DNA from: Zootoca vivipara
Lineage: Eukaryota
DNA: 64,000 nucleotides
Assembly: GCF_963506605.1 (NCBI RefSeq)
Contig: NC_083281.1
Span: 81,220,001 to 81,284,000 of the forward strand
Direction: 5' to 3'
Shown: positions 9,184 to 55,108 of the stretch, piece after piece
Layout of the letters: each line of letters starts with the position of its first letter
Position numbering within the stretch: position 1 is the first letter of the stretch
The notes under the pieces: generated by a model
Databases searched by the model: none
Told to the model about the DNA's origin: nothing
The model's input: the letters and a program-made list of their open reading frames with translations, nothing else
Made by a program: the position numbers and the translations under genes

Positions 9184-9273
9184 CATAGCTGCCAAGTTAT
9201 CCCTTTTTTACAGGGATTTTCCCTTATGCTGAATAGGCTTCCTCGCGAGAAAAGCGAAAACTTGGCAGCTATG
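9184..9273. mobile_element. 90-bp hAT MITE, CATAGCTGCCAAG-TIR family
   Basis: Perfect TSD tctctgag. Confidence 0.9.
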
Positions 9274-17776: not shown

Positions 17777-18123
17777 CATAGCTGCCAAGTCTCCCACTGA
17801 AAAATGCAGGCTCAGCAATGGCACGGCACTGGAAGTTGTTTCTACGCATGTCCAGATATGCGTAGAAGCAACTTCTGGTGCCGCTCTGCCCGATTTTCGG
17901 TGCCCAAGCATGGACGGAGCAGCACCGGAAGTTGTGACTTCCGGTGCCGCGCTATTCATGTTTGGGCACCGGAAATTGGGCGGCGCCGGCACCCAAACTG
18001 GAGTCTCCCCTGCAGATAGGAAATCCGGGGGATTTACGGGATTTTTTCCAATCCGGGCTGCCAGCGGGAAACGGTTTAAAATAAGCGGGTTTCCAGTGGA
18101 AAACGGGAGACTTGGCAGCTATG
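17777..18123. mobile_element. hAT MITE, CATAGCTGCCAAG-TIR family, 347 bp
   Basis: TSD ccMaccat; homologous to 2502-2909. Confidence 0.85.
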
Positions 18124-18471
18124 CCCACCATGCTGCCTGCGCAGAAGGTCCCAGGTTCAATCCCCGACATCTCCTGGTAGGGTTGGGAATGAAAAGCCCT
18201 TCAAAAACAAAAATCCACCAAACTCCACCACAATTGTTCGCTCCAAACCTCAACTCTCCACAGGCCTCAAATGTCATTGCAAAAGCTTTCATGGTTGCGC
18301 TTGCAAAGGCTCATGGGATTGCTAGACGCTATTTTTGCACCATTTTTGCCATTTGTGTACTCTTTTAGGGCCGTTTCCCTCCCTTTTTGTGCCACATCTG
18401 GGTTCACTGTGCTGCTCATGCACACGGTTGCGAGTCCACACAAGCAAACAACATGGAGATACCGATAATAT

Positions 18472-18477
18472 TTTATT
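18472..18477 (-). terminator. Candidate PLA2 polyadenylation signal (AATAAA)
   Basis: First canonical tttatt I found downstream of the stop, about 830 nt away. Confidence 0.35.
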
Positions 18478-18744
18478 TGACTCAAATGCATATTATTACT
18501 ATTGCAGTTTCGAAAGGGTTTTATGACATCCAGTCAGGAAAATGGTCTGTGTTTCCACTTGGTAGGTAAATTCTTGCGGGGGAAAGCAGACCAGGGATGC
18601 AGTTCTAGTGCAAAAAGAAGAGCACCCTAAGATATGAGGCACAATCTCCATCAGGATTAAGCACCCGGGCTATGAGACAAGTCAAGCAAAATAGAGAACA
18701 AAAACAGCCTGGCGGTAGTCTCTTCAATGGAGTACAGAGGGAGA

Positions 18745-18980
18745 TATTGTATCCAATGCTGGTCCTACTCAGAGCAGACCTATTGAAAACAATGTATATA
18801 GCTAATTTAGGTTTGCTAATTTCTGTGGGTCTACTCCAAATACAACCCAACAGATTTACCTTAGGTTGTGCCCAATGTCTGCCCTACTCAGAGTAGACCC
18901 ACTGAAGTTTACTGGGCATGACTAACCAAGATCCATTAATTTCAGTGGGTCTGCTCTGAGTAGGGCTTAGATACAACCCA
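18745..18980. repeat. Two adjacent palindromic repeats of about 115 bp (ctactcagagtagaccc...gggtctactctgagta); other copies near 9095-9400, 29520-29635, 37200-37290, 39940-40030, 50420-50500
   Basis: Self-complementary arms. Confidence 0.65.
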
Positions 18981-19185
18981 CGAACCTTTGCTTCAACTAA
19001 AATAGAGGGAACATAAACTGCAACTTAATTTTCTACATGCTTCTGTTGCTTTCAATTAACCTAACACAATGCTAAGAACCCCAAAATAATAATATAGGCT
19101 GAGCCAACCCTTTATAATAACCAGGTGGGCCAGGCTCCCCCTTGAATCTAACCCCCTACATGCCGCTGAGAGGGATATCCTCCGG

Positions 19186-19275
19186 CATAGCTGCCAAGTT
19201 TTCCCTTTTCTCACGAGGAAGCCTATTCAGCATAAGGGAAAATCCCTTAAAAAAAGGGATAACTTGGCAGCTATG
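19186..19275. mobile_element. 90-bp hAT MITE in the PLA2 3' UTR
   Basis: Perfect TSD tcctccgg; near-identical inverted copy of 9184-9273. Confidence 0.9.
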
Positions 19276-19308
19276 TCCTCCGGTTCTGCTTCCCGTTAAA
19301 AATGCGGC

Positions 19309-19454
19309 TCAACAAAATGGCCGCTGTGCCCTGCAGTTGCCCGCTGGGTGATTCTTGAACTGGAGGTTATAGGCAAAGAGATGCTTCCGGAAGCAGCTGG
19401 CCGCTTTTTGGTCACATTCGCATACGAGCTTCTCGCACCGGTCCCGAGACTTGA
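19309..19454 (-). CDS. PLA2 exon 4 (Asp99 helix, C-terminal Cys extension)
   Basis: ctgcag|TC AAG...TTT TGT TGA, 146 nt. Confidence 0.93.
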
Positions 19455-20749
19455 CTGCAGAGAGAGGAGAAAGGTGGTACCTCAGCATCGTTTTCCGCAA
19501 AGAGGGGTGCTCTGAGCCAGGGGAACGGAAATAGAAAATATTTGAACCAGCTCTTCTGGCTTGATGCTGGACCAACTCACCACATTTAATTTTATCCCTC
19601 TGGGCGTAGAACCTGTATGAGTGGGTGCTTGGGCTGCAACCGAACATCTCGGCCTTGTTGTAGCAGCAGTCGTGGCTGTGGCAGCACCTGGGTGTGACGT
19701 GAAAACGAAAGAGCAAGGAATTGCTATGAATCGGGCCCATTCTGACGCCATCTTAGTTTTTTCAGAACTCAACATCCTGGGACTTCTTTTGTTCTGGAGC
19801 ACTGTGGATTGTTGTTGTTGTTAAAGTGCATCTGATATTTAAAAATGGTAACTGCCGTGTATTTTATTTTTTTAATTTTTTTGCCCACAATGGGCTTAGT
19901 TTGGAAAAACTAAGATGGCGGCCACAACCATGGTCTCCGGCGGCCCATGATATTTCCCCAGTATCACACAGCATGTTTATGATGACAGCACATTCAAGCA
20001 GGAGTCTCCCTCAGCCCTACCTGAAGATGCCGGGGATCGATCCTGGCACCTTCTGCATGCAAAGCAGATGCTCTACCACTGAAAGTGTCTGTGGTAAAGA
20101 CCTGCTGGGACTGGTTCATATCATAATGCAGGTGGAGGCAGTTTATTTGAATTATCCTCCTCATGAAACAAGCTCCTTGTCTGTAGAAAGCAAGCATCTC
20201 AGAGAGGCTAAGCAAGACACTTCCTCCCAGATATGTTAGTTTGGTGCATGCAAGGATTTCTTTGTATGGGAAAGACACTCAAATATGGAGGTCCCCCATC
20301 CCTGTTCTTGAGACTCCCGTGACTTGTAAAACCCCTGAACTGTAAGAGAATGATGACAGCCCAAGAGGTGAGCAATGACTGGCAATCTCAGGTGAGCCTC
20401 ACCTGTCGATGGCGTCCACGGGGAAGCCTTGAGTCCCTGCCCCACAGTGGCAGCCGTAGTTGGTGAAGTTGGCCAGGCTGTAGGTGACGGTGCTCATCTG
20501 AATCATCTCATTAAACTGGGAGGCAAGGCCGGTCACCAGAGTGGCTCCTGAAAGAGCAACAGGGTCTTGTTTGGAGGGAAGAGCAAAGAGACAGGGAGCA
20601 GGGGGCACGGATCGAAAAAAGGCAAGGGAGTTGATGTGGGATACCTTTCCCCCTGCTGCCACCTTCCCTCAGAGGTAAACCATTCTCAGCCACTTGTTGG
20701 CAGTAGGTAGGGCCAAAGCCACCTCCTTTTCCTCCCTTTGCCACCCCTT

Positions 20750-20833
<84 letters not shown>

Positions 20834-21419
20834 AGTCCTAAGGCTGCTGCTTGCCCAGGCCTGAACTGAGAGTTGAGCCTGTCCATGAAAGAACTGGGAA
20901 TTAGATCAAGCATGCTGTGGCATGAGCAGTCAAAGCGTTTGGACTGGTGAGCCTGCCTGGAGGCCAGAAGTAACCTAGTGGCAAAAGAAGATGGCTTTAA
21001 ACTCCTGCCTAGGGGTATTAGCCATGAACACCCAGATTCAGTGGCAGTATATCCCTGAATACCAATTGCCAGATTTTTTTCCCCTTCTTCCTCTTCCCAC
21101 ATTTGGCAGCAAAATGCACTGCCCTCAAGCTGGTTTCTTGATGGCAATGCCATAGGATGATGTTGCATCGCCATGAAGCCAAATCAGAGTGAGGCCACTC
21201 TGAGGGCTTGTTGGGGTGTGTGCGTGTGCTTGCCATCAGTTGCCACCATCCCAAGGGACCACAGTGGAAGCAAAGAGACCCCATCCCAGAGACCCCTCTT
21301 TCGAAGAACAACAACAACAGTTCTGGAAAGAACTCTCAGCTCTACTGAGGACAGAACTATAGCACAAAAGTAGGCTTACCGCAAGCCAGAACCAGTAGGA
21401 AGATTGTAACGTTCTGCAT
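19309..21419 (-). CDS. Secreted phospholipase A2, otoconin-22-like with group II-type architecture, 145 aa: join of 21380-21419, 20403-20547, 19581-19687, 19309-19454
   Basis: Exons of 40/145/107/146 nt, all GT-AG, 438 nt in total. Signal peptide MQNVTIFLLVLACGATLVTG; mature LASQFNEMI...YGCHCGAGTQG...CCHSHDCCY...CECDQKAASCF...CRAQRPFC with 14 Cys. It closely resembles Xenopus otoconin-22 as recalled (ANF-YGCHCG, CCYNKAEM-GC, YRFY, C-terminal RPFC). Confidence 0.93.
19581..19687 (-). CDS. PLA2 exon 3 (His-Asp active site)
   Basis: cccag|G TGC TGC CAC AGC CAC GAC...TGT G|gtgagt, 107 nt. Confidence 0.93.
20403..20547 (-). CDS. PLA2 exon 2 (N-terminal helix, Ca2+-binding loop)
   Basis: tttcag|GAGCC...GACAG|gtgagg, 145 nt. 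Confidence 0.93.
20755..20831. repeat. Compound (CT)n(CA)n microsatellite in PLA2 intron 1; other microsatellites at 5944-5986, 24582-24620, 34057-34097, 44310-44378, 55112-55163, 59864-59937, 63194-63229, 63811-63896
   Basis: Direct reading. Confidence 0.95.
21380..21419 (-). CDS. PLA2 exon 1 (signal peptide)
   Basis: ATG CAG AAC...GCT TGC G|gtaagc, 40 nt, hydrophobic; TATA box 74 nt upstream. Confidence 0.88.
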
Positions 21420-21492
21420 GGGTGCAGCTGAATGGAAGCAGGCCAGCTGACAAAAGAAGGGCTCTGTGCAATCGCTTGGGTGTCTGTGTCAG

Positions 21493-21500
21493 TTTATATA
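21493..21500 (-). promoter_or_regulatory. TATA box (TATATAAA) of the PLA2 gene
   Basis: tttatata on the + strand, 74 nt upstream of the ATG. Confidence 0.65.
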
Positions 21501-39123: not shown

Positions 39124-39519
39124 TTAGCTGCTGAGGCGCATATCTATGCTATGCTCTTTCCTGCGCTTGAATCCACTCAGCACCACACTTGGGTAGAGCT
39201 CAGGCATCTGGCATGTGCTATACTTTGTGTCTTGGCATGGGATGCCAGTGCCATCGCTGGCGTAAGGTTTTGCCATGTCCTGGGTGCTGGCCAGGCCTTC
39301 CTCCACATAGCGGTACTTCTCCAATGTCAAGCTTATGCTCGGGATGTTTGGGGGTCGAGACACCTTATGCGTCCTCTTGGCCGTGAACTGGCGGTAGAGG
39401 AAGATGAGAGACAAGATGGCGGCATCCACGAGGAACTCCAGCAGCTCCACCACTGACAGCACCGACGACCCAAACCAGAGACTCCAGTTGCTTCCCATGT
39501 TGGACATCATCTGGGTTTC
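39124..39519 (-). CDS. SCNN1D: SCNN1D last coding exon (DEG site, TM2, GSS filter, C-terminal tail)
   Basis: tag|[32 protein letters not shown]...DMRLSS*. Confidence 0.93.
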   Translation of the reverse strand, partial: ETQMMSNMGSNWSLWFGSSVLSVVELLEFLVDAAILSLIFLYRQFTAKRTHKVSRPPNIPSISLTLEKYRYVEEGLASTQDMAKPYASDGTGIPCQDTKYSTCQMPELYPSVVLSGFKRRKEHSIDMRLSS

Positions 39520-42500
39520 CTAGGGAAAACAGACCACCTGATTAGACCAGAGGCGGGGAGTCCTTTGCAGATCGAGGGCCACATAGCCTTCCAGGGAACC
39601 ACATGCCAGTGGTGGGAGGACCAGAAGCATAAATGGGTGTAGCAACAAACGTCAATTTTATCCTTTGTACAAGTAGACTAGTTTCTACACACACTGGTAC
39701 AGTACCTCTCTCAATCCTCCATCCAGGAAAGCAAGAGGTGTGATCAGAGATCAAGGACACATTCCAGCCAGGCCAAAGCACTCGGGGAGGGTGTGAAGTA
39801 GGGCTGGGGAAGAGTTCCTAGGGCCAGATGGAGAGGCCTGGGAGGGCCACACTTGGCCCCTGGACTTTAGCTGCCCAAGCCCCAGGTTAGACATTGCTGT
39901 GACCCTATACGTTGCAGCCAACATTAAAGTCCCACATGGAGTCAACCCATAAACATTTATGGATCTAACTTAGTCATGGCGATTAATTTTTGTGCATCTA
40001 CTCTGAGTATGACTTAGTTGGATACAATGTTTCTCTTCTGCAAATATCTTCGTTTACCTGCCGAGTTGTCCTTTCTTTCTGTTCCTAGTTTTATTTCATT
40101 TCTAATTGCTGCTTGTCTTCCTTAGCCTACGGATTTGTTTGCGGAAGGGCAACTTTATGTGGCCTCTGCTATCAGTTTCAAAGAACTTATAAAGGCTAAG
40201 AACATTATGTGTGTTCTTTCTCTCCTCCTTCCTAATCTCATTTCCCCTTCTGTTGTAATTTTAAGATTCTAAGACAGGGGAGTGGCGTCTGATTCCTGAT
40301 CATTCTAAGCTGCTCCGGGAGAATTTTTTTCAGCCAAAGAACAAGATGCAAAAGGAAATGAATTCCTTTCTTTGGTAATAGTTGTTTCTAACTGCTGTTT
40401 AAGTTGGGCTGGATCCAAGTTGACAGCATAATTCTCTGCATGCTTGCTCACAAGCACAGCAATTGGGTTCAATGGGACTTACTTCCAGGTAAGCATGAAT
40501 ACTATGGGTGCCTATTGTTAGCTGCAGCTGGTTGCCATGGAAACCAGTGGTCCTTAACTCAGTGTTTCCCAACCTTGTGCCTCCAGATGTTTTGGGACTA
40601 CAACTCCCATCATCCCTAGCTAGCAAGACCAGTGGTCAGGAATGATGGGAATTGTAGTCCGAAAACAGCTGGAGGCACAAGGTTGGGAAACACTGCCTTG
40701 ACTCATGACGAAGGTGGTGATCCTAACCCCACTTACCTGGGAATGAATTCAAGAGGACTTACTTCTGAGTAGATACTGGGTTGCAGTCACTTAGCTATAC
40801 TCAGAGTAGACCCATTTCAAGTGAATGAACATGACTAACTAAAGTTAATGTGGGCCGAATAAACACACATATAAAAGCAGAGCAACCTTCAACTTACTGT
40901 ATATTCAGGAGATTCATCCCAAGAATTGTAGTTTAGTCGCTCGTAGTAAATGTTCACCTTGGCAATATCTTTCCTGGCACTGAGGGAAAAGAGTGTCGAG
41001 ATCAAGTTAGTCCAGTGTAAATTTCCCCCCCAACCCATACATTCTATTACAGTTTGAAAGAAAATACATGAAGGTTAATATCAAATATACAGTATCTTTT
41101 TATCAAAGATTTTTTTTAAAAAAAACCTAAATCTAAATAAAAACAAACCAAAATGAAGAAAAGAAAAAAGGGGAAACAACAAAGCAAGAGGAGAAGGGGG
41201 GGGAAGAGAACTTCAAATTCTTCATCTGTCTGCTACATATAAAAAAATTATCCAAAACATCCACTCCATGGTAACTGTCCAGTGTAAATTTGATTGAGGG
41301 AACTTTTGACAAAATTGCGGAGAGACACTGCCAGTCAGTGTAGGCAACACTGAGTTGGATGGACCAAACAACCTCACTCTGTGTGTTCCTTTGCTTCAGG
41401 TGGCTGAGGACCTTTTGTTAAAATGCAAACTGAACTGGTACAGTCAGAAGCGAAGACCAGTGAATGCCAGTGCATCCTCCGCAGCTAACTACATACAGGC
41501 CTGCAGTTGGACTGATCAAAATAAATTTGCTATAGGTAAAGGTAAAGGGACCCCTGACCATTAGGTCCAGTCACGAACGACTCTGGGGTTGCGGCGCTCA
41601 TTTCGCTTTACTGGCCGAGGGAGCCGGCGTACAGCTTCCAGGTCATGTGGCCAGCAGGACTAAGCCGCTTCTGGCGAACCAGAGCAGCGCACGGAAACGC
41701 CGTTTACCTTCCCGCCGGAGTGGTACCTATTTATCTACTTGCACTTTGACGTGCTTTCAAACTGCTAGGTTGGCAGGAGCTGGGACTGAGCAATGGGAGC
41801 TCACTCGGTTGCGGGGATTCCAACCGCCGACCTTCCGATTGGCAAGCCCAAGAGGATCAGTGGTTTAGACCACAGCGCCACCCGCGTCCCACAAATTTGC
41901 TATAGTGCCATGGAAGTGGACTTTCTTTGAGGCTACAGCTCCTACACTTCAAAATTTAGCACCGCACCATAGATGCCAGTTCTGAAGACAGTTGCCAAAT
42001 AATCTTGCATTTATGGTGATAGAGGAGGACTTGACAGCAGCAGCAGCACACCACCCCAAGTAGAAAAAACAACTTGTGACTAACCTGTCGCCGGTGACAT
42101 TGTAGCTGTTCTGGGCTTCCAAAGCTTTGTGAATCCATTTCTAAAAAGGAAGACACAGGAAATGGGTTCAAAATCTGGAATCAGACGCAGCAGATTGTTC
42201 AAGTGGCAATGTGCCAGGGATGGCATAGGGGAGCTGCCAGCTGTCCAAAATATCAGCTGGGCTTGCTCTTGGGCTCTTAAAAGAAGCTTGCTTTGCAGTG
42301 AAGCTTAAAATGCCATTGGGAAAAAGATGACCACCTATGAAGGCCTTTGGGTCAAGCTGCTGTTAAAGGCGGGGTAGCACTGTGCAGTAGAGTAGTTGGC
42401 AATTTGCAATACTAAAAATGGATACATACAAGCAAGGCAGAAGTTGTGTGACTATCGAGTTTTTTAAAAATATGTTGAATATTCAAAACTTTTTGTTTGC

Positions 42501-44308
42501 ACTTAGAAGTTTCATCGATATGTTTAATATATTTTCTTTGCTCTCGTTTTTTAAAAAAGGGAATTTGACACCACTATGGAGGACCTGTTGCACCCTATCA
42601 GATGTTTAAAGAGGCAGAAGGAACAGTTAAATTCTCCTCCTTATAGGAGCACACACCATAGCTGACTGGCTCCTTGATTGGTTGTCTGTTCACTGCAGCA
42701 GGCTCTCTGATTGGTAAGTAACTATCATTAGCCAGCTTAGGAGAACATTGAAAATTTAGCATCCTCCCCCACTCTGAACTCCGCATAGTTTATACTTTAC
42801 CTCCGATTTGGTCGAGGGCCACTTTGCATATCCTGCTGAAAGTTTGTACCAAGTCTCTCTGCCAAGAAGACAAGAATGTAAAAAGGTTACGGGGAACTGT
42901 GCTGCATCAGAACAAAAGCTACAGTGAACTTTTTTATGGTCTCGTCTCCTTTTCTATACTTTGAGATGTGGCGGTCTTTTTATGTTATGTCACACCCCCA
43001 TGGCAGCCAGTTGGTGACTGGAACCCACAGTACGTGCTCAACATTCCCAAAGTGTCCACTAGCCTGAAATGGCCGTATGCATCCTTGGGTGATCTACATG
43101 CAGGTCGCACTTACCGAACACAGCGTGTTCCCTGGAAATTGTTTGTTAGGCGACCAATCAGCTAACAAGATGACAGTTTCCATTATTTCCTATGTGAACA
43201 TTTCTGATCCATGATTCCCCCCCCCCCCACTCTCTTGCAGCCAACCAGCAAGAGAGAGGCAAAGGAAAATCTGGTTTGTTCAAACTCTCCTGCTCCCTGA
43301 TTTATCCAATCTCTCTACCCCCCATTCCTTTTCTCCATGGTTTCTGCCTGAAAACGGTTGCCGCTGACCAGCAAAGCATAAACAAGTATGGAAGTGGGCA
43401 GATTCTGGCTGTTTGGATATCTGAATGAGCTGAGCATGTAACAAGGTTTGGGCCTTTTTTGTGTGTGTGTTTGGATAAGTGAATCTTTGCATAACAAGCA
43501 GACCAATAGTGGGACCTGCATGTGTGACTCAAAAGAGAATGAGATGAGGTAGATATCTAGTGGGCCAGTCGATGAAAAGGCACATATCTGGTCCATGCTA
43601 AGCTTGACCCTGCTACCATTCAAATGTGTCAAAAGCCTTTTCTACTCACTTGCATGGTCTGTGGCATTTGTCAAAACAGGATTCGCTATGAGTGGCATCC
43701 TGATTGTACACACGATTGTACAGGCGATAGAAGCAATGACCTACAAGGGGGGGGGTGGTGGAAATAAAAGGAACAAGTTAAATAGATTGCAGCTGCCACA
43801 GGGAAAATTGAGGATGGCCCTGTTCTGCCATCATCAAGGGTCCTTGTCCAAACCAACCCCCAACATGGTCTGATCAACATTTCCTGTTTCCAGCTGAACT
43901 TAGTTTGAGTGCTTCTTCCTGCTTCAAATTGAACCCACTTTGATTACCACGTCCTGTTTCCAATTTAGCAGTTTGGCTGTCACTTCCTGTTTTCAGCTGA
44001 ATACAGATTGATCAGCACTTCCATCTAACTCAGGCATCCCCAAACTGCGGCCCTCCAGATGTTTTGGCCTACAACTCCCATGATCCCTAGCTAACAGGAC
44101 CAGTGCTCATGGATGATGGGGATTGTAGTCCAAAACATCTGGAGGGCCGAAGTTTGGGGGTGCCTGTTCTAACTGAACATGCTTTGCTTGAATGATGTAG
44201 GGAGAATCCCAAGGACCAGACTGTGAAAGGCTGCATCCAGACCCTGGGCCTGAGATTCCCCACCCCTGAGTCAGCTCATACAAAGTATTCACATTATGGG
44301 TCCTCTTT

Positions 44309-44378
<70 letters not shown>

Positions 44379-47300
44379 GTTGTTTAAGTATCCACCCTAG
44401 TTCAGGTGTGCCAGGAGGTAGCCAACATAGTGCCTTCCAAATTTTGTTGGAACTCTAACTCCCATCAGCCCCAGCCAACATGGCCAATGGACAAGAATGA
44501 TGGGAGTTGGAGTCTAGCAACATTTACAGGCACCACATTGGCTCTCATGGGGGAAACAGCTGGCCAGGCTACATATAGACTCTGTGCCATTGGCCAAATC
44601 AAGTCATTCTGAACACATTTAACCGTGTTTGTGTGTGTGTGTATGTGGCTTCTCCTTACCCCAATTAGGATGCTTGTTATAGTTGCAGTACTCCGTTCTT
44701 GGAGGCAGTGGGTAGTAATAGTACCCACAACCACATTCTTCAATCATTTTCCTCTGGAAGCATGAATGCAAGCAAGCCTGTGGGGCAGTGAAATGGGGTG
44801 GGAGACAGAACAAAACAGAAAGTGCTGTAAGTCCAATTTCTCTGGTGCCTCAAGCCTTTCGCTTCAGATCCGCTAGTGGGGTAGATAGGTGTTAACTTAA
44901 TGGGAAGGGCTATCCCAATGCATTTTGCCACCCGAAGCAGAAGAGCCAAACCCACAACTGCAAAGCAATTTTCCCCAATAGAATGCATGCTTGCTTGGTA
45001 TTTGCAATAATACAGGCGTTCTTATGGAAACTTTGCCTCTGTACATACATCTTTGCACACATTACTTGGCTGGAGAATTGCACTGCACAATTTGGAATGG
45101 GGCAGATTCTGAAGGATGCCTGCCTTTCCAGCTTACCTCGTCAGTTTGAAAACTGCAAAAAACTAGGTAGGTTTGCCTTAAGATCGAAACTGGATCAAAT
45201 TTCTCCCCTCTTCCTTAGCCTGAATTTCACACCCTGATGTGAATTAACTGGGCAGATCTTTGACAGTGAGCCGCTTGCTCTAATTATTTGAGTGATCCAG
45301 CACATGGAAAGGGGCAGGATCTTAAAAAGGCAGAAATGAACAAAGTGGGAAAACAAAGCCTCTGTTTTAGCTGTACCTGCTGCGTATATGTGCTGTTGTA
45401 TATGAGCTTGACAGCCACATCATCTCCGTCCTTTGTACATGTTCCGTAATTTCCGCCTAAGCGAGTCACCTCGTCCTGCGTAGTTGGAGGGAGGAAAGAG
45501 CATATCACTTGGAGTTTAGCATACAGGCCAGAATCAATTCAAAATAAAGAAGCTAAACCTGACAGAGTCCCTCCCCTCTCCACCACTAAAGCAACATCAA
45601 TCCCACAGGGGAGACCATTGCAAACTGTCTGTCGCCAGTTACTGAAAGTCAACTGTCTGGTGGTAGCTGGTGCCCAGCAGGTTTGGTGGGGTGGAACTCA
45701 GAGAGCCCAAAGATTTTGACATTCCCCCAAACTGGGATTACAAAAAAAAACAACCCAATTTGGAATGCCAGTTCAAAAACATCAGGGAGGGGAGGGGAGG
45801 ACCTTTTTTCAGAGCGACGGCTGCATTTACTCTAGGCCAGGCATCCCCAAACTGTGGCCCTCCAGATGTTTTGGCCTGCAACTCCCATGATCCCTAGCTA
45901 AGAGGATCAGTGGTCAGGGATGATGGGAATTGTAGTCCAAAACATCTGGAGGGCCGAAGTTTGGGGATGCCTGCTCTAGGCAAACTTCCGGGGGGGGGGA
46001 GACACAGAACCAAAAGGGGGCGTGGCATTGTATGTAAGGTTTACCCTAGTTTATATCCACATTTACACAAACCCCACTCTATGCGCCATCCAGGCGAGTC
46101 AGAGACACTACCAGAGTTCAAGGGTGCATTTAGCCAGGTAAAAGCAGGGATGCGAATCAGGGTAAGGGATGTGTGGCCTGGGAAGAGAGTGTCAAGGGCC
46201 AGATCAGAAGGAATTTGGCTGCCGGGCCCGAAGTTCCCAATCGCTGATTAAAACACTTTTACCCTGCTCTGCCTCCCAGACACCCCACCACCCCACATCC
46301 CGACCACCCTGTCAGTTTGCATTCCTTAGTACAGAAAGTATTGATCTGATGTTTAGAGTTCTTTCCTGTTCTGCTTAGTTCAAGAGGGTTCTGGAAGGTT
46401 TCTTTCTATGTGAAAGAAACAGGCAGAAGGTCCTTGTTTGGGTTATTCCTTCTGAGAAACTGAGTACTGTACAGCTGGTTTAAACTGGTTCTGTTATCCT
46501 TTCTGTCAATGTCATGCTGACTATAATAGTCAGCCCAGGAGGAGCCTTGGTTTCACTTACTTTCTCTTTCTATCTCTTTGTTCTTGTGTGGTGTTCTGTA
46601 CGTTTAGTGTTGAGGTTCAGTCTTATTATAAGTTCTTGTTAAGGTTAAGTTAAGTTTGCTGTAACTGGATTTCTTATGGACAGTGCCAATTCTGAATGTA
46701 TTGAATTTGTGACCATTATGCTCATTTGCCTTCTGGAGCAGTAAAGCTATGTTGGATGAAGTACAATCGCCTCTGGTCTATTTTTGGGAACTCTGCAACG
46801 TGTTTAGGTTTTTTCCTCTTCCACACACGACACATGTCAAGGTTTTTCCTGTTGCCCATTCAGACACACACACACACCCCCCGATGCTCACCTGTGTGAT
46901 CCCGATGGTGGTTTGAATCCCCGGCCGAATATCAAACCCCTCGTGCTCTAAGAACGCGGTCTGGTTGTGGCTGTGGATCATCACCCTCACACCCGCCTTG
47001 GTGGACAGCAGCGGGATGTGGTCCTTTTGTTCCACTTTGAGGATAAGGGAGAGACCTGGCACCAAAGAAACACAGGAAGGTAAGAAGAACCTGCTGGATT
47101 GGGCCAATGGCCCGTCGAGGAAAAAGCAGAGGGATTCGTCGTCAAAGCACAGCTCTGTCCAAGCAGGAAGTGACATCAGTCTGTTGCTAAACAGGAAGTG
47201 GCATCACCGTGTGGCCAAAGCTCTTTTTATTGCACATGCCCCTCTCTGATGGGAGAGAACGCTGCTCAAAATTTCCACCTACATAGTTGGCCCCTGAGGT

Positions 47301-50300
47301 CACAATGAGCAGCTGTGAAAGCAACGGCTCCTCACACGAGAGAGGGATCGCTTCTGTGTTGCTCACTATGATGTCAGAGACACCCTCATGGGCACAAGAT
47401 CTCACATATATCATCATCGCTAGTGTGTAGGAATGATTCAGGGCCAGCCAAGGACATCTTGCCATCTGAGGCAAGGATAAGATGATGCACTCCAAATGCA
47501 GAAGACCGCTGGGCTAGCAGTTGAAGTTGACCTTGGTGATGTCAGGAAAGCTTTCCCCAACACACCTGAAGGCAGTTACATAAGAAGCTGCTTTATACTG
47601 AGTCAGACCTTTGGTCTATCTAGCTCAGTATCGTCTTACTAGCTTAAGCGCTCCAGAGACCATTTGTTTCAGTGTGCTTTTAAATTGCTGGTGTTTTCTC
47701 ACCCTGCCCTTCAAATCATACATTTACATTGTTTTACAGTTGGCATTGTGTATTGTTTTATAGTGCTAAAACCATCGATTTATGATAGCTCAGTTGCCTT
47801 TGTATATTCAGCTTATCCTACAGGGTGATGGCACAGTTAAACTATGGAAATCTTTGAAGGAGTGATGGGCACGAACTTGGATGTTATCAAAAGAGGATTG
47901 GAGAGATTCGTGGGGGAAAAGACTATCAAAGGTTATTAGCCACGATGGCTACGCTCTGCCTCCACAGTTAGATGGGCCACTGGTCTGATCCAGAAGGCTC
48001 TTAGTATGTTATAGGGTGACCCCACTCCTCCTCACTCTGCCCCCTGAGCTGGCATTCTGGGCCTAGATCCATTGGGTGTACTTTGCCCTAGCAGCGAAAA
48101 TCAAAGTAGGCAGCTTGAAGCCTGCCTGCCTGCCTGCCATCTTAAAATTTGGTATTGCACCTCTGTTGAGAAAGCTATAACAGTGAAAACCAGAAAAGAG
48201 TTTTGCTGTTTTACAAATATCTCTTCCTCTAGCTCCCCTCAGGGTCATCTGTTGTTTGACCCTTCCCGCTTTCCCTCCCTGACCTTTCACCTTAGGAACA
48301 GCACATCATGGGAGAGAGGTTAAGCTTTTCTACCCGGGTCATTTTCTTGATAAAAATCACTTCTCAGATCTTCTATTTGCAGCAATTTTGTGGGGAGGGG
48401 GCATAAAGGTGCCCATATGATACCCGTATATTGTCCCTCTGCTGGGCAAATAGCAGCTTCAAAGGTTATTTTAATCAGGCAAATGACCCTACTGGAAAGG
48501 GTTAACCCACCCATTTTTCCAGTGTCACAGCCCTGATCTGATCTGGGACATAACTGGACCTGTTTTCACTCTAAGGACACACTCTGAAGACAGTAATAAA
48601 ATGGCAGGTTATGTATGCTGGAAAGCAAATGGACATCCAGCCAAACTGACAGCTACCCCTTCCCTCACAGAAACTGCTGGACTGTGAACATTCCGTTTCT
48701 GATAATTTTGCCCTCTTGGTTCACAGCATGTACTTTGACTGATACACCAGCTGAACCAAACTGTGTCTGACCTTCATTGCCTCAAGGGGGGGGGAACACA
48801 ACATCTAGATTTATCTCTGTAGTTTAAAGCAACACGTCTGTGGAACATGATGCGCACTGTACACAGCCTAACTCTTGCAAGCGACCAATAGTCACACTTA
48901 TCTGCCTGCACATTCTTTTTCTCCGTTCTTACCGTAAACGATTCCAGGCTTCAAAGCTTTCCAGAACTCATCTGTCCCGCCTTTATTAAAAGTGTAACAA
49001 CTTCCATAGGCGGGGTGATGAAAGTGCACCGTTTCACTGTAGGGAAGGAAGGAAAGGGGGGGTCAAAATAGGAGCATTTTTTGTTGTTCTCCCTTTTCCA
49101 GCGTTTGTTCACTGGACTTCATTCTCCAGTTCCTCAGCCCTCCAGATGTTTTGGGACTACAACTCCCATCATCCCTGACCACTGGTCCTGTTAGCTAGGG
49201 ATGATGGGAGTTGTAGTCCCAAAACACTTGGAGGGCCGAGTTTGCCTATGCCTGTTCTACAGCCTTCCTTCACCAACGTCCTCGAAAAAGATATGGAACA
49301 GAATGGAGTCTCCTGGAAAGGGCATGGCTGGCTGGATCCCTGAACGGGAGCACGCCACACTGAAATGTTTTGCTGTGGGCGCCCATTAAGTGTTCACAGC
49401 CCCGGGGAGATATGGTGAGATGGAGAGATAACCATCTCGTTCCATGTGACCATGCTGAAACATTTCATCACAAAAGCCATCTCAGAGAAAGGGGGACTTT
49501 TGTGAATAGTATCAGCCTCAGATGATAAGCACACACACCCCACCAGCGGTATTTTGGATTTGGCGGTGGGGGCAGCTAGTGCTTAAGAACAGGGATAAAA
49601 TATAAGGAATATAAATAAAGACACCATAAGAACTTAAGAACATAAGAACAGCCTTTTAGATCAGGCCAATGACTCATAGTCCAGCATCCTGTTCTCACAG
49701 TGGCCAACCAGATGCTCCAATGGGAAGCTCCAAAGCAGAACTGCTCCTGCGGCTTCCAGTAACTGGCATTTATGGGCATTATGTCTCCAGCCTCGAAGGT
49801 GTGGATGTTTAAACATGGCCCTACATGACACCTGCATTCCAAAGCTGACCGTTACTTTTACGAGTGAGGTCATCTCGACTTGGGACGAGAGAGCAGCCCG
49901 AGAGAGGCTCCACCTTCTGGAAGTTTGCTTAAAACTTACAGGAGTTCTGCCAATTACCCTCAATTTGTCCCGGCCGATAACGCTTAAGCAAATGTTTGCT
50001 TGGGTTCATTATCGGCGACACATTTTGATGGGCCCTTGCGGTTAGCTCCGCCGGCTTCTTGTTCCAACAACGGACCCAGGGCGGTGGTGGTAGGGACCGG
50101 TTTGGCTCCACCGAGGGAACAACTGGTACAGTCACACCTTGTACTGTACAGAGAAGAGATAAGGCCAGGCAACGGGATAGCCGGCAACTGCACAACAGCA
50201 CCATGGTTAAAAGTCACTCATGGCAGCACATCCCAAGCCATGTGGGGACCGGCAGGTGATACAAAGGGAAGGGTGTCTCCAGAAGTGAGACTTCTTACAG

Positions 50301-53300
50301 GTAAAAGGTCTTGTAAGGCCACCAGAAGCCTTCCTGCCTGTTCCACAAAACTGATGCCCTCTTTACACCCAACTGCCTGCTTGTGTCTTGAGATCTCTCC
50401 CATCTTAGCCCCTCTTGGAGGAAACTCATTGAAAGTAACGGCATGGCTGGCTGAGGTCAATTAATTTCAATGGGTATACTCTGAGTGGGGCTAAGAGTGG
50501 AGGCAATCCCTTCCATAGAAGTTCTGCTCCCACAAAGGAGAGGGCCTTTTCTTGCTGGAGTGCCCTGCTTCTGAAGTTGCCTCGCCAAGGAGGAACATCT
50601 AGCACCATGATGAACTTTATGGTGCAAGGAGAAGGTGAAGACCTTCCTACTGCCCAAGACTTTTTAGGTTCAGCTACTTTAGTCACCTGCCACTGAATAC
50701 CAGTGGCTGGGAACTGCAGGAGGGGAGAGTTGCTTTTGTGCTCTGGTCCTGCTTGTGGGCATTCCAGAGACATCTGGTTGGCCACTTTGAGAAGAGAGGG
50801 TTGCTTCCAACTCAATTCAACTCAGAACAGGCCCAATGAAAGGAGCAAACCTAAGTTAGGGCTTATCCATGCTTACCTTTCACCTGCTTTCTCCAGGCAC
50901 TGTCCATGATTTAAACCTCTGGGCCTGAGCTCCCATTTGCCCCCCTCGGAGTTTTCGCCATGAAAATCAGCTCTTTAAAGCTCAGTAGCAGCAAACGTCA
51001 ATCTGTGGGGAAATCTGAATTGATGTTTGCACCGATTTGACTTTAAAGAATGGGTTTTCATGGGAAAAGCTTGGAGCAAAATAGCCCCACGGAAACCTCT
51101 TGGACACGGATCGTTATAGCATGGACCTCTGGCTGGAAAGAGCAGGGCAAACGCTAAGTGTGGATAAACCCTCAGTTATGGCCAAGAACATCAATGGTTC
51201 TGCCCATGAGCAGGACGAACACCAGCACAGCCAATAGAATCTGGGGGGATGGGAGTTTGCCATTCAAGATTCTAGGGGTTGGGCTCAACTTCATGGCCAA
51301 GTGGGGATCTGAACCTTGCTCTCCCAGGCCCCAATCCGGCACTCTAACCACTGCACCACACTGTCTCTCCCATTTGGCCAAGGCAATAGCAACAGAGTTC
51401 ACCCCCCCTGCCCTCTTCACCCTCTGCCTTGCTCCTTTCGCAAAGCACCTGCAATGGCCCTGAGGACAACGCTGCTGCTGTTGTTGCTGTTGCTGCCTGT
51501 CTTCCGAAACAGGCAGCATTTCAGTGGGTGTGTGCAGGTTTGCTTTGGCTTAATCAGATTGTTCTCCTTGCTGCGCCGTATGCAAACAGAAGCCGGGGAG
51601 GACCGGGTGCCAACCTGCCCTTCACCTCGAGAGAGACAGGGAGAGTCTGAGGCAATTCCAGGGAACTTCCCCACCCGCAGCCTGAAATTATCCCAAAAGG
51701 AGATGAGCCGCCAACGCCCTGTTGTGCACCTGAAGGAACCAGCTCCTCTCTGTGAGGGATCTGGGAATAGAAATAGGCAGGGTGGCTTGGGAGAATAATG
51801 TAGGGCGGTTCCGGAGAAAGGGGCTGGGGAATGAAAGGTTTGCAGAAAGAGCAATCGATGGGATAGAGGGGAATTGAGCAATTCCCCTATCTATGAAGGG
51901 TGCATGGGATCTGCAGTGGTTGGACCTTGGAAGAGTAGAGCTCAAAACCTGGTCAGGAAGCTGCCTCGAAGGGTTGTTGTGAGGATAATGCGGAGAGGGG
52001 CACCCATACTGCCTCGAGCTCCTCAGAGGAAAAATAAGAACTACCGGTAGTGTGGTCTAGTGGTTAAGAGTGTTGGACAAGGACCTGGGGGACCAGGAGA
52101 CAAATTCCCAGCAACTGCCCTAGGCATCTGAATTACAGTCATTTCAATGGGTCTAGTCTGAGCATTGGATGCAACCCTACATTCTTCTTTTGCAGGAGCA
52201 ATGCTTCCATCGATGGCCACCAGCTGCTGTCTGTGAGCTCCCTCTCTGGAGTGATTCTCGGAATGCTATGGTTCTACAACTGTGCAGGCCAGCAGGCCGG
52301 GGGGGGGGGGGGCTGCGTGAGTTACCTAGCTTTGCAAGGCAATCCGTCATACTGGCAAGCGTAGACCAGGTCGTTGATGTGGTCGGCATCCTTGGAGATG
52401 TCAATGATGGGTGGCACCTGGGACATGATGTTCATGTAGTGGAAACGGTACCATTCCTGGAAAGCGTCGACCCCGGAGGAGTAAACCTTGATGTAGCAGT
52501 CTCCGCCCGTTTGGTTACACTGAGGAAGGAAGAGAATTAGGGGAGTGAGATGTTCGGCTCCGAAGAAACAACTGTGCAGTGGGTCAAGAAACTGGAGAGA
52601 GAGAGCAGAAGAGGGAGCTCTGCGGAGCAAAGCCAAAGGTCTGTCTTGGTAGCCTGAAAATAGAACAGGAAGCCAAGTGTCCTCTCCAGCTGCTCCTCCC
52701 CAGCATACTGCCTCTGACCACACAGCCACCATGACCTCAGAGGCGCAGTGTGTAAGAGAGGGCCTTCCCTGTGGCAGCCCCTGAGCTGTGGAATTCCTTC
52801 CCCACAGAGGTGGTATCTTCATTATACAGCTTTTGGTGAATGCTGAAGACGCATCTCTTAACCATGGCTTTTGATTCCAAAGGCGTATATTTTAGGACCT
52901 GTCTTGTTTCTGTAATTCTAAGTTGTTTTCAACTGTTTTCAATATTGTATATTAATGTACAGTGGTACATTGGTTCTCGAACGGCTTGGCTCCCAAACAA
53001 ATCGGCTCCTGAAACACCACAAACCTGGAAGTGAGTGTTCTGGTTTGTGAACGTTTTTTGGAAGCCGATTGTCTGACGCGGCTTCCGCGGCTTCTGATTG
53101 AGTGCAGGAAGCTCCAACGATTCCAGGAGTCAAATGGACTCCCGGAACAGATTAAGTTCGACAACCAAGCTACCACTGTATCTTAATAATGATAATGATG
53201 ATGATGATGATGGTAATTTATTTCTTACCCATCTTTCCTTCTAAGATCTGAGGGCGGGTTACAGCATTAAAAGCAATATTAAAAACAATTAAAAACAACT

Positions 53301-54899
53301 TGGAACCATCGAAATAAGGTGGGTCCTAAAACATACACCCCAAATGTTAAAATTAATGTTGTGTTTTAATTGTTGCCCTGGGACCTTGGGGTGAAGGGCA
53401 ATTGAGAAATTGTAACGACAACGACAACAACAACGACAACCGGGTCATGATAGCCTCCCTGTCATTCTGCGATCCCTGAGTGGCTGGGCTCAGCCTGCAA
53501 CCAGTCCAGGAAGACCAATTGTCAATGGCAGATGGCCACTGGAAATGGCCATTGAAATCCCCGTTCAACTTACCAGCCGGAAGCCCACTTTGCCGTCGCC
53601 CATTCTCACTAGAGCAACGCTGTGATCTAGCTTGAAGCTGGAGCTGTTGACCGCACTGCTTGTCCAGTTCTCCACACTGACGCTGGAGTTGTCTTCCAGA
53701 GTGCTCGCCGGGATGGTGAAGGGGTATAGGTTGTGTAGGGTTTCCCTGGCCAGATTATCCAGCTCGGCCATATTTTTGCTGACTATATTGACCCTGGGGA
53801 AATGAGAGAAATGACCAAGGGCTCTGAATATCAACATGAACCAAGCCGTGCAAAGGAATCAGCAGGGACAGCCTGATCAAAGAGACCACTCTGGGAAACC
53901 CTGAAGGCGAAACACAGAACCTTAAGAAAACTTGGAGTGTGTCTCCCCAATGTATTGCTCCATTTACTTTTACAAGGGGAGAAATACATGCCTGGCAATA
54001 GAGGTATGCCTGCCAATAGGCTCAGGTGTGGTCTGTAGCTCTGGCCAAGAATAGACTTGCCAGATCTGGGTGTTCAAAGGCAATATGAGTCCTTTATCCT
54101 TCGACAACACCAAGCATCCATTCATCTCCCATATGAGATGCAGCAGTCAACTTCCCAAACTACTGGAGAGACTTTTTGGACTAGAGACTTTAATATGCTT
54201 CATATTTATGCTTCATAAATTTGTTCTAAGTAGCAGTTCTAACATTAAGTTGCTGCTACATTTTTTTCCAAGAAAGGAGAGACCTGGCTCTTATTGTTGT
54301 TGTCTACTGTATTATAGATTTTGCTTGTCCCAGGTGACAAAGCAATAAAATACTATCTATCTATGTTGTGAAAGACTGAAAACAGGAAGCCTAAGAAAAG
54401 GGGAGGGGAACGGAATTTGACAAATTCGCCCCTCCCTGCAAACAAGTGATCCCCTAAACTCCAGTCCCTCTCAACCCGCAAGTGAAGTTTTTCAATGTGC
54501 CTCTCCCTCCCCCATGATTTGAAAGGAAGCCCCTTGAAAATACAAAACACAAAAACACCCGTACCTGTATGGATTCAAATTGCAGAGGGTGATGGCAGGA
54601 AACATCGTTTGCTGTGATTTGACAGAAATTGACAAGACCACTGGGTATTGCCAGTACTGGTTGAAGAGGAGCCCAAATTGCCAATACAGCATGGCAAAGC
54701 TGGCGAGGAAGAGGAGGGTCCAGAAGGCCGTCTTCATCTTGTTCCGACTCGAGCAGACCAGCCGGATGGTGCCATGGATGGTGGTGTTCAAGCAAAAGAA
54801 CTCAAAGAGGTCCTTGAAGGAGCTGTAGAAAGCAATGAGGGCAGCATCCTCCTCCCTTCTCGTTTCCACCTCTTTCTCTTTATGTGTTTCTTCTTCCAT
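39124..54899 (-). CDS. SCNN1D: Amiloride-sensitive epithelial sodium channel subunit delta, 12 coding exons, 636 aa: join of 54565-54899, 53574-53793, 52326-52519, 48933-49036, 46892-47055, 45377-45475, 44660-44777, 43650-43740, 42801-42858, 42085-42140, 40898-40973, 39124-39519
   Basis: All introns are GT-AG and the phases chain without a frameshift (1911 nt = 636 aa + TAA). ENaC motifs present: NTTIHG gating motif, TM1, [20 protein letters not shown], Cys-rich thumb, [11 protein letters not shown] pore. Delta rather than alpha because there is no C-terminal PPxY and no furin RxxR in the finger exon, and it lies tail-to-tail with an ACAP-family exon. Confidence 0.93.
40560..40695. mobile_element. 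136-bp palindromic hAT MITE (CAGTGTTTCCC variant)
   Basis: TSD ccttRact. Confidence 0.88.
40898..40973 (-). CDS. SCNN1D: SCNN1D coding exon 11 (an alternative acceptor gives a start at 40979)
   Basis: [25 protein letters not shown], 76 nt, cag/gtaagt. Confidence 0.9.
41536..41890 (-). mobile_element. Sauria SINE, full length, in an SCNN1D intron
   Basis: 15-bp TSD aYaaatttgctatag at 41521-41535 and 41891-41905. Confidence 0.92.
42085..42140 (-). CDS. SCNN1D: SCNN1D coding exon 10
   Basis: [18 protein letters not shown], 56 nt, tttttag/gttagt; phases fit both neighbours. Confidence 0.88.
42801..42858 (-). CDS. SCNN1D: SCNN1D coding exon 9
   Basis: [19 protein letters not shown], 58 nt, cag/gtaaag. 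Confidence 0.92.
43650..43740 (-). CDS. SCNN1D: SCNN1D coding exon 8
   Basis: [30 protein letters not shown], 91 nt, tag/gtgagt. Confidence 0.9.
44031..44166. mobile_element. 136-bp palindromic hAT MITE
   Basis: TSD Wtctaact. Confidence 0.88.
44660..44777 (-). CDS. SCNN1D: SCNN1D coding exon 7
   Basis: [25 protein letters not shown]...CNYNKHPNW, 118 nt, cag/gtaag. Confidence 0.93.
45377..45475 (-). CDS. SCNN1D: SCNN1D coding exon 6
   Basis: [17 protein letters not shown]...YTQQ, 99 nt, cag/gtac. Confidence 0.93.
45838..45973. mobile_element. 136-bp palindromic hAT MITE nested in a longer hAT-like element (about 45780-46250)
   Basis: Perfect TSD ctctaggc. Confidence 0.88.
46310..46800 (+). 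mobile_element. LTR-like dispersed repeat, copy B, in an SCNN1D intron
   Basis: About 490 bp homologous to copy A once the MITE is removed. Confidence 0.55.
46892..47055 (-). CDS. SCNN1D: SCNN1D coding exon 5
   Basis: [28 protein letters not shown]...[12 protein letters not shown], 164 nt, cag/gtgag. Confidence 0.93.
48933..49036 (-). CDS. SCNN1D: SCNN1D coding exon 4
   Basis: [20 protein letters not shown]...PGIVY, 104 nt, tacag/gtaag. Confidence 0.93.
49135..49254. mobile_element. Palindromic hAT MITE with one end lost
   Basis: Same core as the 8951 copy. Confidence 0.8.
52326..52519 (-). CDS. SCNN1D: SCNN1D coding exon 3
   Basis: [32 protein letters not shown]...CQYDGLPC, 194 nt, cag/gtaac. 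Confidence 0.93.
52960..53178. mobile_element. Tc1/mariner (Tigger-like) MITE
   Basis: TIR CAGTGGTA..TTGGTT; TA TSD. Confidence 0.85.
53574..53793 (-). CDS. SCNN1D: SCNN1D coding exon 2 (finger domain)
   Basis: cag|GGTCAAT...CGGCTG|gtaagt, 220 nt; [15 protein letters not shown]...KVGFRL. Confidence 0.9.
54565..54899 (-). CDS. SCNN1D: SCNN1D coding exon 1 (N-terminus, HG motif, TM1)
   Basis: MEEETHK...[17 protein letters not shown]...[12 protein letters not shown]; donor AG|gtacgg. A tttag acceptor lies 3 nt before the ATG, which implies an upstream exon. Confidence 0.93.
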
Positions 54900-55108
54900 T
54901 CTCTAAACAGATAAAAAGTTTTGAAATTCAGAGTTAGGATGGGCAAGGGAGACCCAGGCTCCCCTTAAGCAATTAGTTGATCTCCCCAACTCCAAGGCAC
55001 TTTATTTTAGCCGAAAAGGTGCTCCACATTCTGCCATTTTCAAATAGGGTGGCTAAATGTGGGTGACGGGGAGGGCATTTCAGCCCAGGCTGAATACAGG
55101 TAGGAGTT

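What the first reader, a model, noticed from the sequence alone, without database searches (positions are those of the whole stretch)
19309..21419. Otoconin-22-like sPLA2 that keeps a full catalytic apparatus and is basic
Seen: the mature 125-aa protein has Q4/F5/I9, the Ca-loop YGCHCGAG (Gly30 and Gly32 kept), His48-Asp49 (CCHSHDCCY), Tyr52 and Asp99 (CECD). It has 14 Cys with a group-II-type C-terminal Cys and no Cys11, an NFT sequon, and 16 K/R against 10 D/E (net about +6). Recalled knowledge: Xenopus otoconin-22 is a non-enzymatic aragonite-matrix protein with Gln at position 48 (CCHSQDCCY), and the 40/145/107-nt exons match PLA2G2A. Inference: this reptile gene may be an active, or dual-role enzyme/biomineral, PLA2 close to the root of the group II family that yielded viper venom PLA2s. 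I know of no equivalent at the human SCNN1D-ACAP3 locus.
Basis: partly seen in the sequence, partly recalled or inferred. Interest (0 to 1): 0.72.

Follow-up and report, generated by a model that had tools for sequence, protein, structure and literature searches.

The report
Lizard otoconin-22 with intact lipase site
This lizard gene is the already annotated counterpart of the frog ear-stone protein otoconin-22; unlike the frog protein it keeps the core lipid-cutting residues, as do its relatives in snakes, crocodiles and marsupials, so it likely works as a weak enzyme as well as a likely ear-crystal protein, though neither role is tested here.

Summary
Observation confirmed: four GT-AG exons give a 145-aa secreted PLA2 with His48, Asp49, Tyr52, Asp99, Gly30, Gly32, 14 Cys and net +6; spliced contigs exist. 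The product is identical to a protein already named 'PLA2 homolog otoconin-22', and a 2020 preprint already calls this single-copy gene the closest relative of PLA2G2. It groups with Xenopus Oc22 at 100/99, outside the PLA2G2 paralogs. His48+Asp49+Gly32 are not special to this lizard: 42 of 42 amniote orthologs keep them; frogs lost His48 (0 of 24), salamanders lost Asp49 (0 of 3), caecilians keep the dyad. So the dyad is likely ancestral. 'Full catalytic apparatus' overstates: Thr33 (Gly in 94 of 98 other dyad-bearing sPLA2 domains), Ser69, Ala2 and an Asn20 sequon (0 of 86 others) all depart from ordinary enzymes. Best reading: a likely inner-ear matrix glycoprotein with a selected, probably weak, lipase site. 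I found no paper on the residue pattern, but key Oc22 papers were not held.

The parts
21380..21419 (-). Coding exon 1 (40 nt): start codon and first half of the signal peptide
   Evidence: spliced to exon 2 in X1, X3, X5
20403..20547 (-). Coding exon 2 (145 nt): end of signal peptide, helix 1, Asn20 sequon, Ca2+ loop
20462..20470 (-). N-glycosylation sequon at mature position 20, kept in 71 of 72 Oc22-family proteins and in 0 of 86 other dyad-bearing sPLA2 domains that cover the site
20426..20458 (-). Ca2+-binding loop: His28, Gly30 and Gly32 kept, Thr33 in place of the usual Gly33
19581..19687 (-). Coding exon 3 (107 nt): catalytic helix, Ser69, Tyr73, beta-wing
19669..19674 (-). His48-Asp49 codons
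   Evidence: 42 of 42 amniote orthologs
19309..19454 (-). Coding exon 4 (146 nt with stop): Asp99 (19411-19413), helix 3, group-II-type C-terminal extension ending in Cys
18462..19308 (-). 3' UTR; AATAAA at 18477-18472, and a spliced contig of a related lizard ends at 18462
   Evidence: run X3, record 9
21495..21500 (-). TATA-like box about 80 nt upstream of the start codon; contigs reach 21445-21449 in X3 and X1, and 21561 in X5
39127..54902 (-). Upstream neighbour: ENaC/ASC-family channel gene (SCNN1D by position; first and last coding frames given)
   Evidence: a Dromiciops model named SCNN1D ends in an Oc22-like domain

Best explanation
The gene is the single-copy lizard ortholog of frog otoconin-22; it encodes a 14-cysteine phospholipase A2-fold protein with a signal peptide and a glycosylation sequon that keeps His48, Asp49, Asp99, Gly30 and Gly32, and it likely serves as a calcium-binding matrix protein of inner-ear crystals with a likely weak lipase activity. 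Shown: gene, splicing, orthology, fold prediction, residue states. Inferred: the His48/Asp49 dyad is ancestral for tetrapod Oc22, kept in amniotes and caecilians and lost in frogs (His48) and salamanders (Asp49). Inferred mechanism: secreted into endolymph, the protein binds Ca2+ through Asp49 and the loop carbonyls and docks on the lipid vesicles of the otoconial precursor; slow hydrolysis would open them, and the protein would then stay as crystal matrix through the family-specific surface that it shares with frog Oc22. Thr33, Ser69, Ala2 and the Asn20 glycan would keep turnover on membranes low.
For: Identity to P0026, named otoconin-22 homolog. Oc22 clade with Xenopus at 98/98 and 100/99, amphibians and amniotes each on their own branch. 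One match of this kind in the genome. Sixteen positions are kept in at least 90% of 72 Oc22 proteins, frogs included, but in under 25% of 98 other sPLA2 domains: a shared non-catalytic surface. His48, Asp49 and Gly32 unchanged in 42 of 42 amniotes over a tree length of 2.65, while 24 frogs (length 1.55) show Gln/Lys/Arg48 and Asp/Ala49. Only 3 amniote-invariant sites are wholly lost in frogs, two of them Gly32 and His48. Frog Oc22 is the main otoconial scaffold (PMC3038909, passages); reptile otoliths may be aragonite or calcite (PMC8941411, passages); the otoconial precursor is proposed to sit in lipid vesicles that must open (PMC10886416, passages).
Against: No tissue, protein or activity data. 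The enrichment of catalytic sites is marginal and post hoc (p 0.045 or 0.066 by threshold). Salamanders keep His48 with Ala49, so His48 alone shows nothing. Amniote forms are basic (+3 to +8) and the window protein lacks the second sequon of the acidic amphibian forms (-1 to -5), whereas Oc90 is strongly acidic (PMC3105080), which fits a mineral role less well. Marsupials keep the gene although mammalian otoconia are said to be calcite. Spliced contigs occur in runs of four lizard species whose tissue is not given, which may mean expression outside the ear.
Confidence: 0.47

Rival explanations
1. A catalytically dead matrix protein, like frog Oc22: His48 and Asp49 are kept for structure or Ca2+ binding only, and the other changes have already shut off lipolysis.
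For: No Oc22-family protein has Gly33 (0 of 72) against 94 of 98 other dyad-bearing domains; Ser69 in 2 of 98; sequon at 20 in 0 of 86. Position 69 drifts freely among amniotes (seven residues). His48 persists beside Ala49 in salamanders. Databases name it a PLA2 'homolog'.
Against: Frogs show that the fold needs neither His48 nor Asp49, yet 42 of 42 amniotes keep both and Gly32. Two of 98 other dyad-bearing domains also have Thr33 and 34 of 98 lack Lys/Tyr69, so these changes need not kill activity.
Confidence: 0.27
2. An active, ordinary-type secreted lipase working outside the ear; the otoconial role is an amphibian invention that came with acidification and loss of the active site.
For: Charge, Gly32 and the second sequon split amniotes from amphibians. 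Marsupials keep it. Spliced contigs in 4 of 8 runs of unknown tissue.
Against: The 16-residue family signature and the Asn20 sequon are shared with frog Oc22. Thr33 is fixed in 41 of 42 amniotes. Exons had no reads in three deep raw-read runs (about 6% of each read) and in X21, so expression is not broad.
Confidence: 0.22
3. A diverged member of the PLA2G2 cluster (for example a IIA-like antibacterial enzyme) that was mislabelled.
For: Best solved-structure matches are group IIE and IIA; group-II cysteine pattern and exon sizes.
Against: Only 34-39% identical to the lizard's four PLA2G2 genes against 58-66% to amphibian and marsupial Oc22; lies about 9 Mb from that cluster; falls outside the g2+g10 branch (96/94); net +6 is unremarkable.
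Confidence: 0.03

Closest known systems
Otoconin-22 of Xenopus and bullfrog (P0044, P0045, P0041)
   Same: Same clade (100/99), about 60% identity in the mature part, 14 Cys, Asn20 sequon, His28, His46 and the same four C-terminal residues.
   Different: Frogs have Gln/Lys/Arg48, often Ala49, always Asn32, a second sequon and net negative charge; the lizard protein has His48, Asp49, Gly32, one sequon and net +6.
'Otoconin-22-like' Pla2 of Koludarov et al. (bioRxiv 10.1101/583344)
   Same: This is that gene family: single copy, outside the OTUD3-UBXN10 cluster, called the closest relative of Pla2g2, under purifying selection.
   Different: The parts read (parts 1-2 of 5 and keyword passages over the whole text) say nothing on its catalytic residues, charge or function; supplements could not be seen.
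Human group IIE and IIA sPLA2 (PDB 5wzm, 5wzo, 1n28, 1bbc)
   Same: Same predicted fold (rmsd 1.2-1.5 A), His48/Asp49/Tyr52/Tyr73/Asp99, C-terminal extension with terminal Cys.
   Different: 39-42% identity; IIE has Gly33 and Lys69 where this has Thr and Ser, and no sequon at 20.
Otoconin-90 (two sPLA2-like domains)
   Same: sPLA2 fold used as otoconial matrix (PMC3105080).
   Different: Two domains, strongly acidic, catalytically inactive; separate branch in the tree, with no supported link to Oc22 (OC90 rows labelled by me from their motifs).

Membership tests
Otoconin-22 family | One clade with Xenopus Oc22 | tested here: met
   98/98 and 100/99
Otoconin-22 family | Single copy, outside the PLA2G2 cluster | tested here: met
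   One three-exon match at 81-92% identity; PLA2G2 exons lie at C6:71.99-72.03 Mb, the window at 81.2 Mb
Otoconin-22 family | Family sequence signature (Asn20 sequon, His28, His46, C-terminal motif) | tested here: met
Otoconin-22 family | Protein present in otoconia or endolymphatic crystals | not testable with these tools
   Runs carry coded samples and no tissue
Otoconin-22 family | Catalytic His48 replaced, acidic (as in the characterised frog proteins) | tested here: not met
   His48 and net +6; this feature holds for frogs only, not for the clade
Active group I/II/V/X sPLA2 | His48, Asp49, Tyr52, Tyr73, Asp99 | tested here: met
Active group I/II/V/X sPLA2 | Ca2+ loop with Gly30, Gly32, Gly33 | tested here: inconclusive
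   Gly30 and Gly32 kept; Thr33 against Gly in 94 of 98 other dyad-bearing domains; effect on activity unknown (paper search found nothing)
Active group I/II/V/X sPLA2 | Lys or Tyr at 69 (phosphate contact, role recalled) and an unglycosylated docking face | tested here: not met
   Ser69 (Lys/Tyr in 64 of 98 others, so not strict) and a sequon at 20 (0 of 86 others)
Active group I/II/V/X sPLA2 | Ca2+-dependent sn-2 hydrolysis | not testable with these tools
   needs an assay
Group II sPLA2 (PLA2G2 cluster) | Cys50 to C-terminal Cys pattern, no Cys11, no pancreatic loop | tested here: met
Group II sPLA2 (PLA2G2 cluster) | Nested among PLA2G2 genes and located in their cluster | tested here: not met
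   Free tree puts group X-like rows inside g2 and leaves Oc22 unplaced; Oc22+g2 as one clade not rejected, p-AU 0.29
Otoconin-90 | Two inactive sPLA2-like domains, strongly acidic | tested here: not met
   One domain, basic, dyad intact

The most novel reading that the evidence does not exclude
Amniote otoconin-22 is an overlooked, working sPLA2 of reptiles and marsupials that opens otoconial precursor vesicles and then becomes crystal matrix; frogs and salamanders each turned it into a dead scaffold by a different route. The family would then hold every step of an enzyme-to-biomineral conversion in living animals.
Probability: 0.25. Interest if true: 0.6.

Novelty: new variant of a known kind. 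Interest (0 to 1): 0.36.

Why it matters
The gene and its family are known, but the only characterised members are the dead frog proteins. If the amniote form is active, the name 'PLA2 homolog' is wrong for reptiles and marsupials, and there is a natural series (amniote His/Asp/Gly32, caecilian His/Asp/Asn32, salamander His/Ala, frog Gln/Asp or Gln/Ala) on which to test how a lipase became an ear-stone scaffold, and whether lipolysis has a part in otoconia formation. It says little new about viper venom origins.

Tried and rejected
First AlphaFold run on the 50-row ortholog alignment failed (pLDDT 49.6) and was replaced by a 91-row alignment. The profile search of 50%-identity representatives found no fish, lungfish or coelacanth Oc22 among the best 150 rows; the lungfish and coelacanth rows named there group with g2/g10, so no outgroup for position 32 was found. 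No bird, turtle, monotreme or placental name appeared among listed cluster members, but 2 of 17 and 16 of 31 members of two clusters were not listed and the word search is insensitive: absence is not shown. The ESM Atlas gave only generic PLA2 clusters. The paper search on Oc22 abbreviations returned mostly unrelated papers; the Gly33 search returned none; four primary otoconin papers were not held. Rejected: PLA2G2A-specific exon sizes; unusual basicity; lizard-specific retention of His48; canonical PLA2G2 paralog. No complex was predicted, as no protein partner is claimed.

Full report
The gene. The minus strand holds four coding exons of 40, 145, 107 and 146 nt with GT-AG introns. They give a 145-residue protein; with a 20-residue signal peptide the mature part has 125 residues, 14 cysteines, one sequon, 16 Lys/Arg and 10 Asp/Glu, pI 8.7. 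Contigs joined at the predicted sites were found in 4 of 8 runs laid: X1 (same organism label as the full DNA holders) introns 1 and 3, X2 intron 3, X3 and X5 all three; the X3 contig ends at 18462, just past an AATAAA. X18, X19, X20 (about 6% of each run read) and X21 had no depth on the exons.

What it is. The product is identical to P0026, which its source names 'phospholipase A2 homolog otoconin-22' of Zootoca vivipara. The genome has one such gene; the PLA2G2 exons lie about 9 Mb away on the same contig. A marsupial model named SCNN1D ends in an Oc22-like domain, which points to the same order in marsupials. The human locus was not examined. In a 31-row tree the Oc22 proteins form one branch at 98/98. 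In a 54-row tree they form one branch at 100/99, outside a g2+g10 branch at 96/94; their nearest kin is unresolved and the bootstrap had not fully settled. Of the 38 representative rows in that tree, 8 were named and the rest were labelled by me from motifs. Holding Oc22 and g2 together is not rejected (p-AU 0.29). The second AlphaFold model (pLDDT 87.9) matches human group IIE best, rmsd 1.3 A.

Survey of catalytic residues. I used 72 of 94 Oc22-family proteins fetched; the 22 left out were second models or isoforms, partial or mis-spliced models, and a few further snake and marsupial species. His48+Asp49+Gly32: 28 of 28 squamates, 4 of 4 crocodilians, 10 of 10 marsupials. Caecilians (3 of 3) have His48+Asp49 with Asn32; salamanders (3 of 3) His48+Ala49; frogs have no His48 (Gln 18, Lys 3, Arg 3 of 24), Asp49 in 12 of 24 and His52 in 6 of 24. 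Net charge is +3 to +8 in amniotes and -1 to -5 in amphibians. Since all other sPLA2 groups carry the dyad, the simplest history is an ancestral dyad with losses in frogs and salamanders (inference). Of 36 non-cysteine sites invariant in amniotes, 3 of 6 catalytic and 3 of 30 other sites are changed in at least half of the frogs (one-sided p 0.045; 2 of 6 against 1 of 30 at a 90% threshold, p 0.066; both post hoc). This is modest evidence that the site is under selection in amniotes and relaxed in frogs.

Against a 'full' apparatus. Among 151 non-Oc22 domains with at least 80 aligned columns, 98 have His48, Asp49 and Asp99. Of these, 94 have Gly33 and 2 have Thr; 64 have Lys or Tyr at 69 and 2 have Ser; 0 of the 86 that cover position 20 have a sequon there. 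The window protein has Thr33, Ser69 and the sequon; no Oc22 protein has Gly33 and 71 of 72 have the sequon. Position 2 is Ala, where Leu is usual (recalled; the profile alignment covered that column in only 2 of 98 rows). That positions 2, 20 and 69 lie on the membrane-docking face is recalled and was not measured. Net +6 is reached by 20 of 58 near-complete other domains. The 145-nt exon fits all four lizard PLA2G2 genes, and the 107-nt exon three of them and both group X-like loci. Sixteen positions are kept across Oc22 proteins, frogs included, but rare elsewhere, which suggests a shared function that does not need catalysis.

Mechanism. Frog Oc22 is the main otoconial scaffold (PMC3038909, passages); Oc90 is an inactive, acidic two-domain counterpart (PMC3105080, passages); reptile otoliths may be aragonite or calcite (PMC8941411, passages); the precursor 'globular substance' is proposed to lie in lipid vesicles that must open (PMC10886416, passages). 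I take as most likely (0.47) an ear matrix glycoprotein that still binds Ca2+ at Asp49 and hydrolyses lipid slowly. A dead scaffold (0.27) and an active enzyme outside the ear (0.22) remain open. The basic charge and retention in marsupials count against a pure aragonite-matrix role.

What is known. Koludarov et al. (bioRxiv 10.1101/583344; parts 1-2 of 5 read, keyword passages over the whole text; supplements closed and may show these residues) describe the gene as single-copy, under purifying selection and the closest relative of Pla2g2. Nine searches found no paper on catalytic residues of amniote Oc22; only 5 held papers contain 'otoconin-22', and four primary papers were not held, so this is weak. 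Passages of PMC8073766 note that His at 28 is normal in mammalian group II enzymes. PMC3991680 and PMC7618414 (passages) and PMC13621992 (only a short text held) had nothing on Oc22. The scan's own notes held nothing on this protein.

Verdict. A real, known gene. Interest 0.36.

Noticed in passing
L004 (G000:C1:83721146-83721436, minus): An intronless sPLA2 with His48/Asp49/Asp99, a basic pro-peptide and 16 Cys in the stretch examined, on a long branch.
   Followed up: no
window 19186-19275; also 9184-9273 and one arm at 18100: A 90-nt element with 24-nt terminal inverted repeats sits in the 3' UTR, 33 nt after the stop; a related lizard's transcript has 61 other letters over 19113-19281; reads show it is a common transcribed repeat.
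   Followed up: partly
P0238 (Dromiciops model): A database model named SCNN1D carries a whole Oc22-like domain at its C-terminus: probably two neighbouring genes merged by annotation, though read-through was not excluded.
   Followed up: partly
L006 (C4:71.56 Mb) and L009 (C14:45.33 Mb): Two separate group X-like PLA2 loci in this genome, each with a 107-nt catalytic exon; labels are mine, from motifs.
   Followed up: no
L014-L017 (C6:71.99-72.03 Mb): The lizard's PLA2G2 cluster shows four genes, all with His48/Asp49 and Gly33, on the same chromosome as the Oc22 gene, about 9 Mb away.
   Followed up: partly
window 18747-18966: Several imperfect direct and inverted copies of a short repeat in the 3' UTR.
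   Followed up: no
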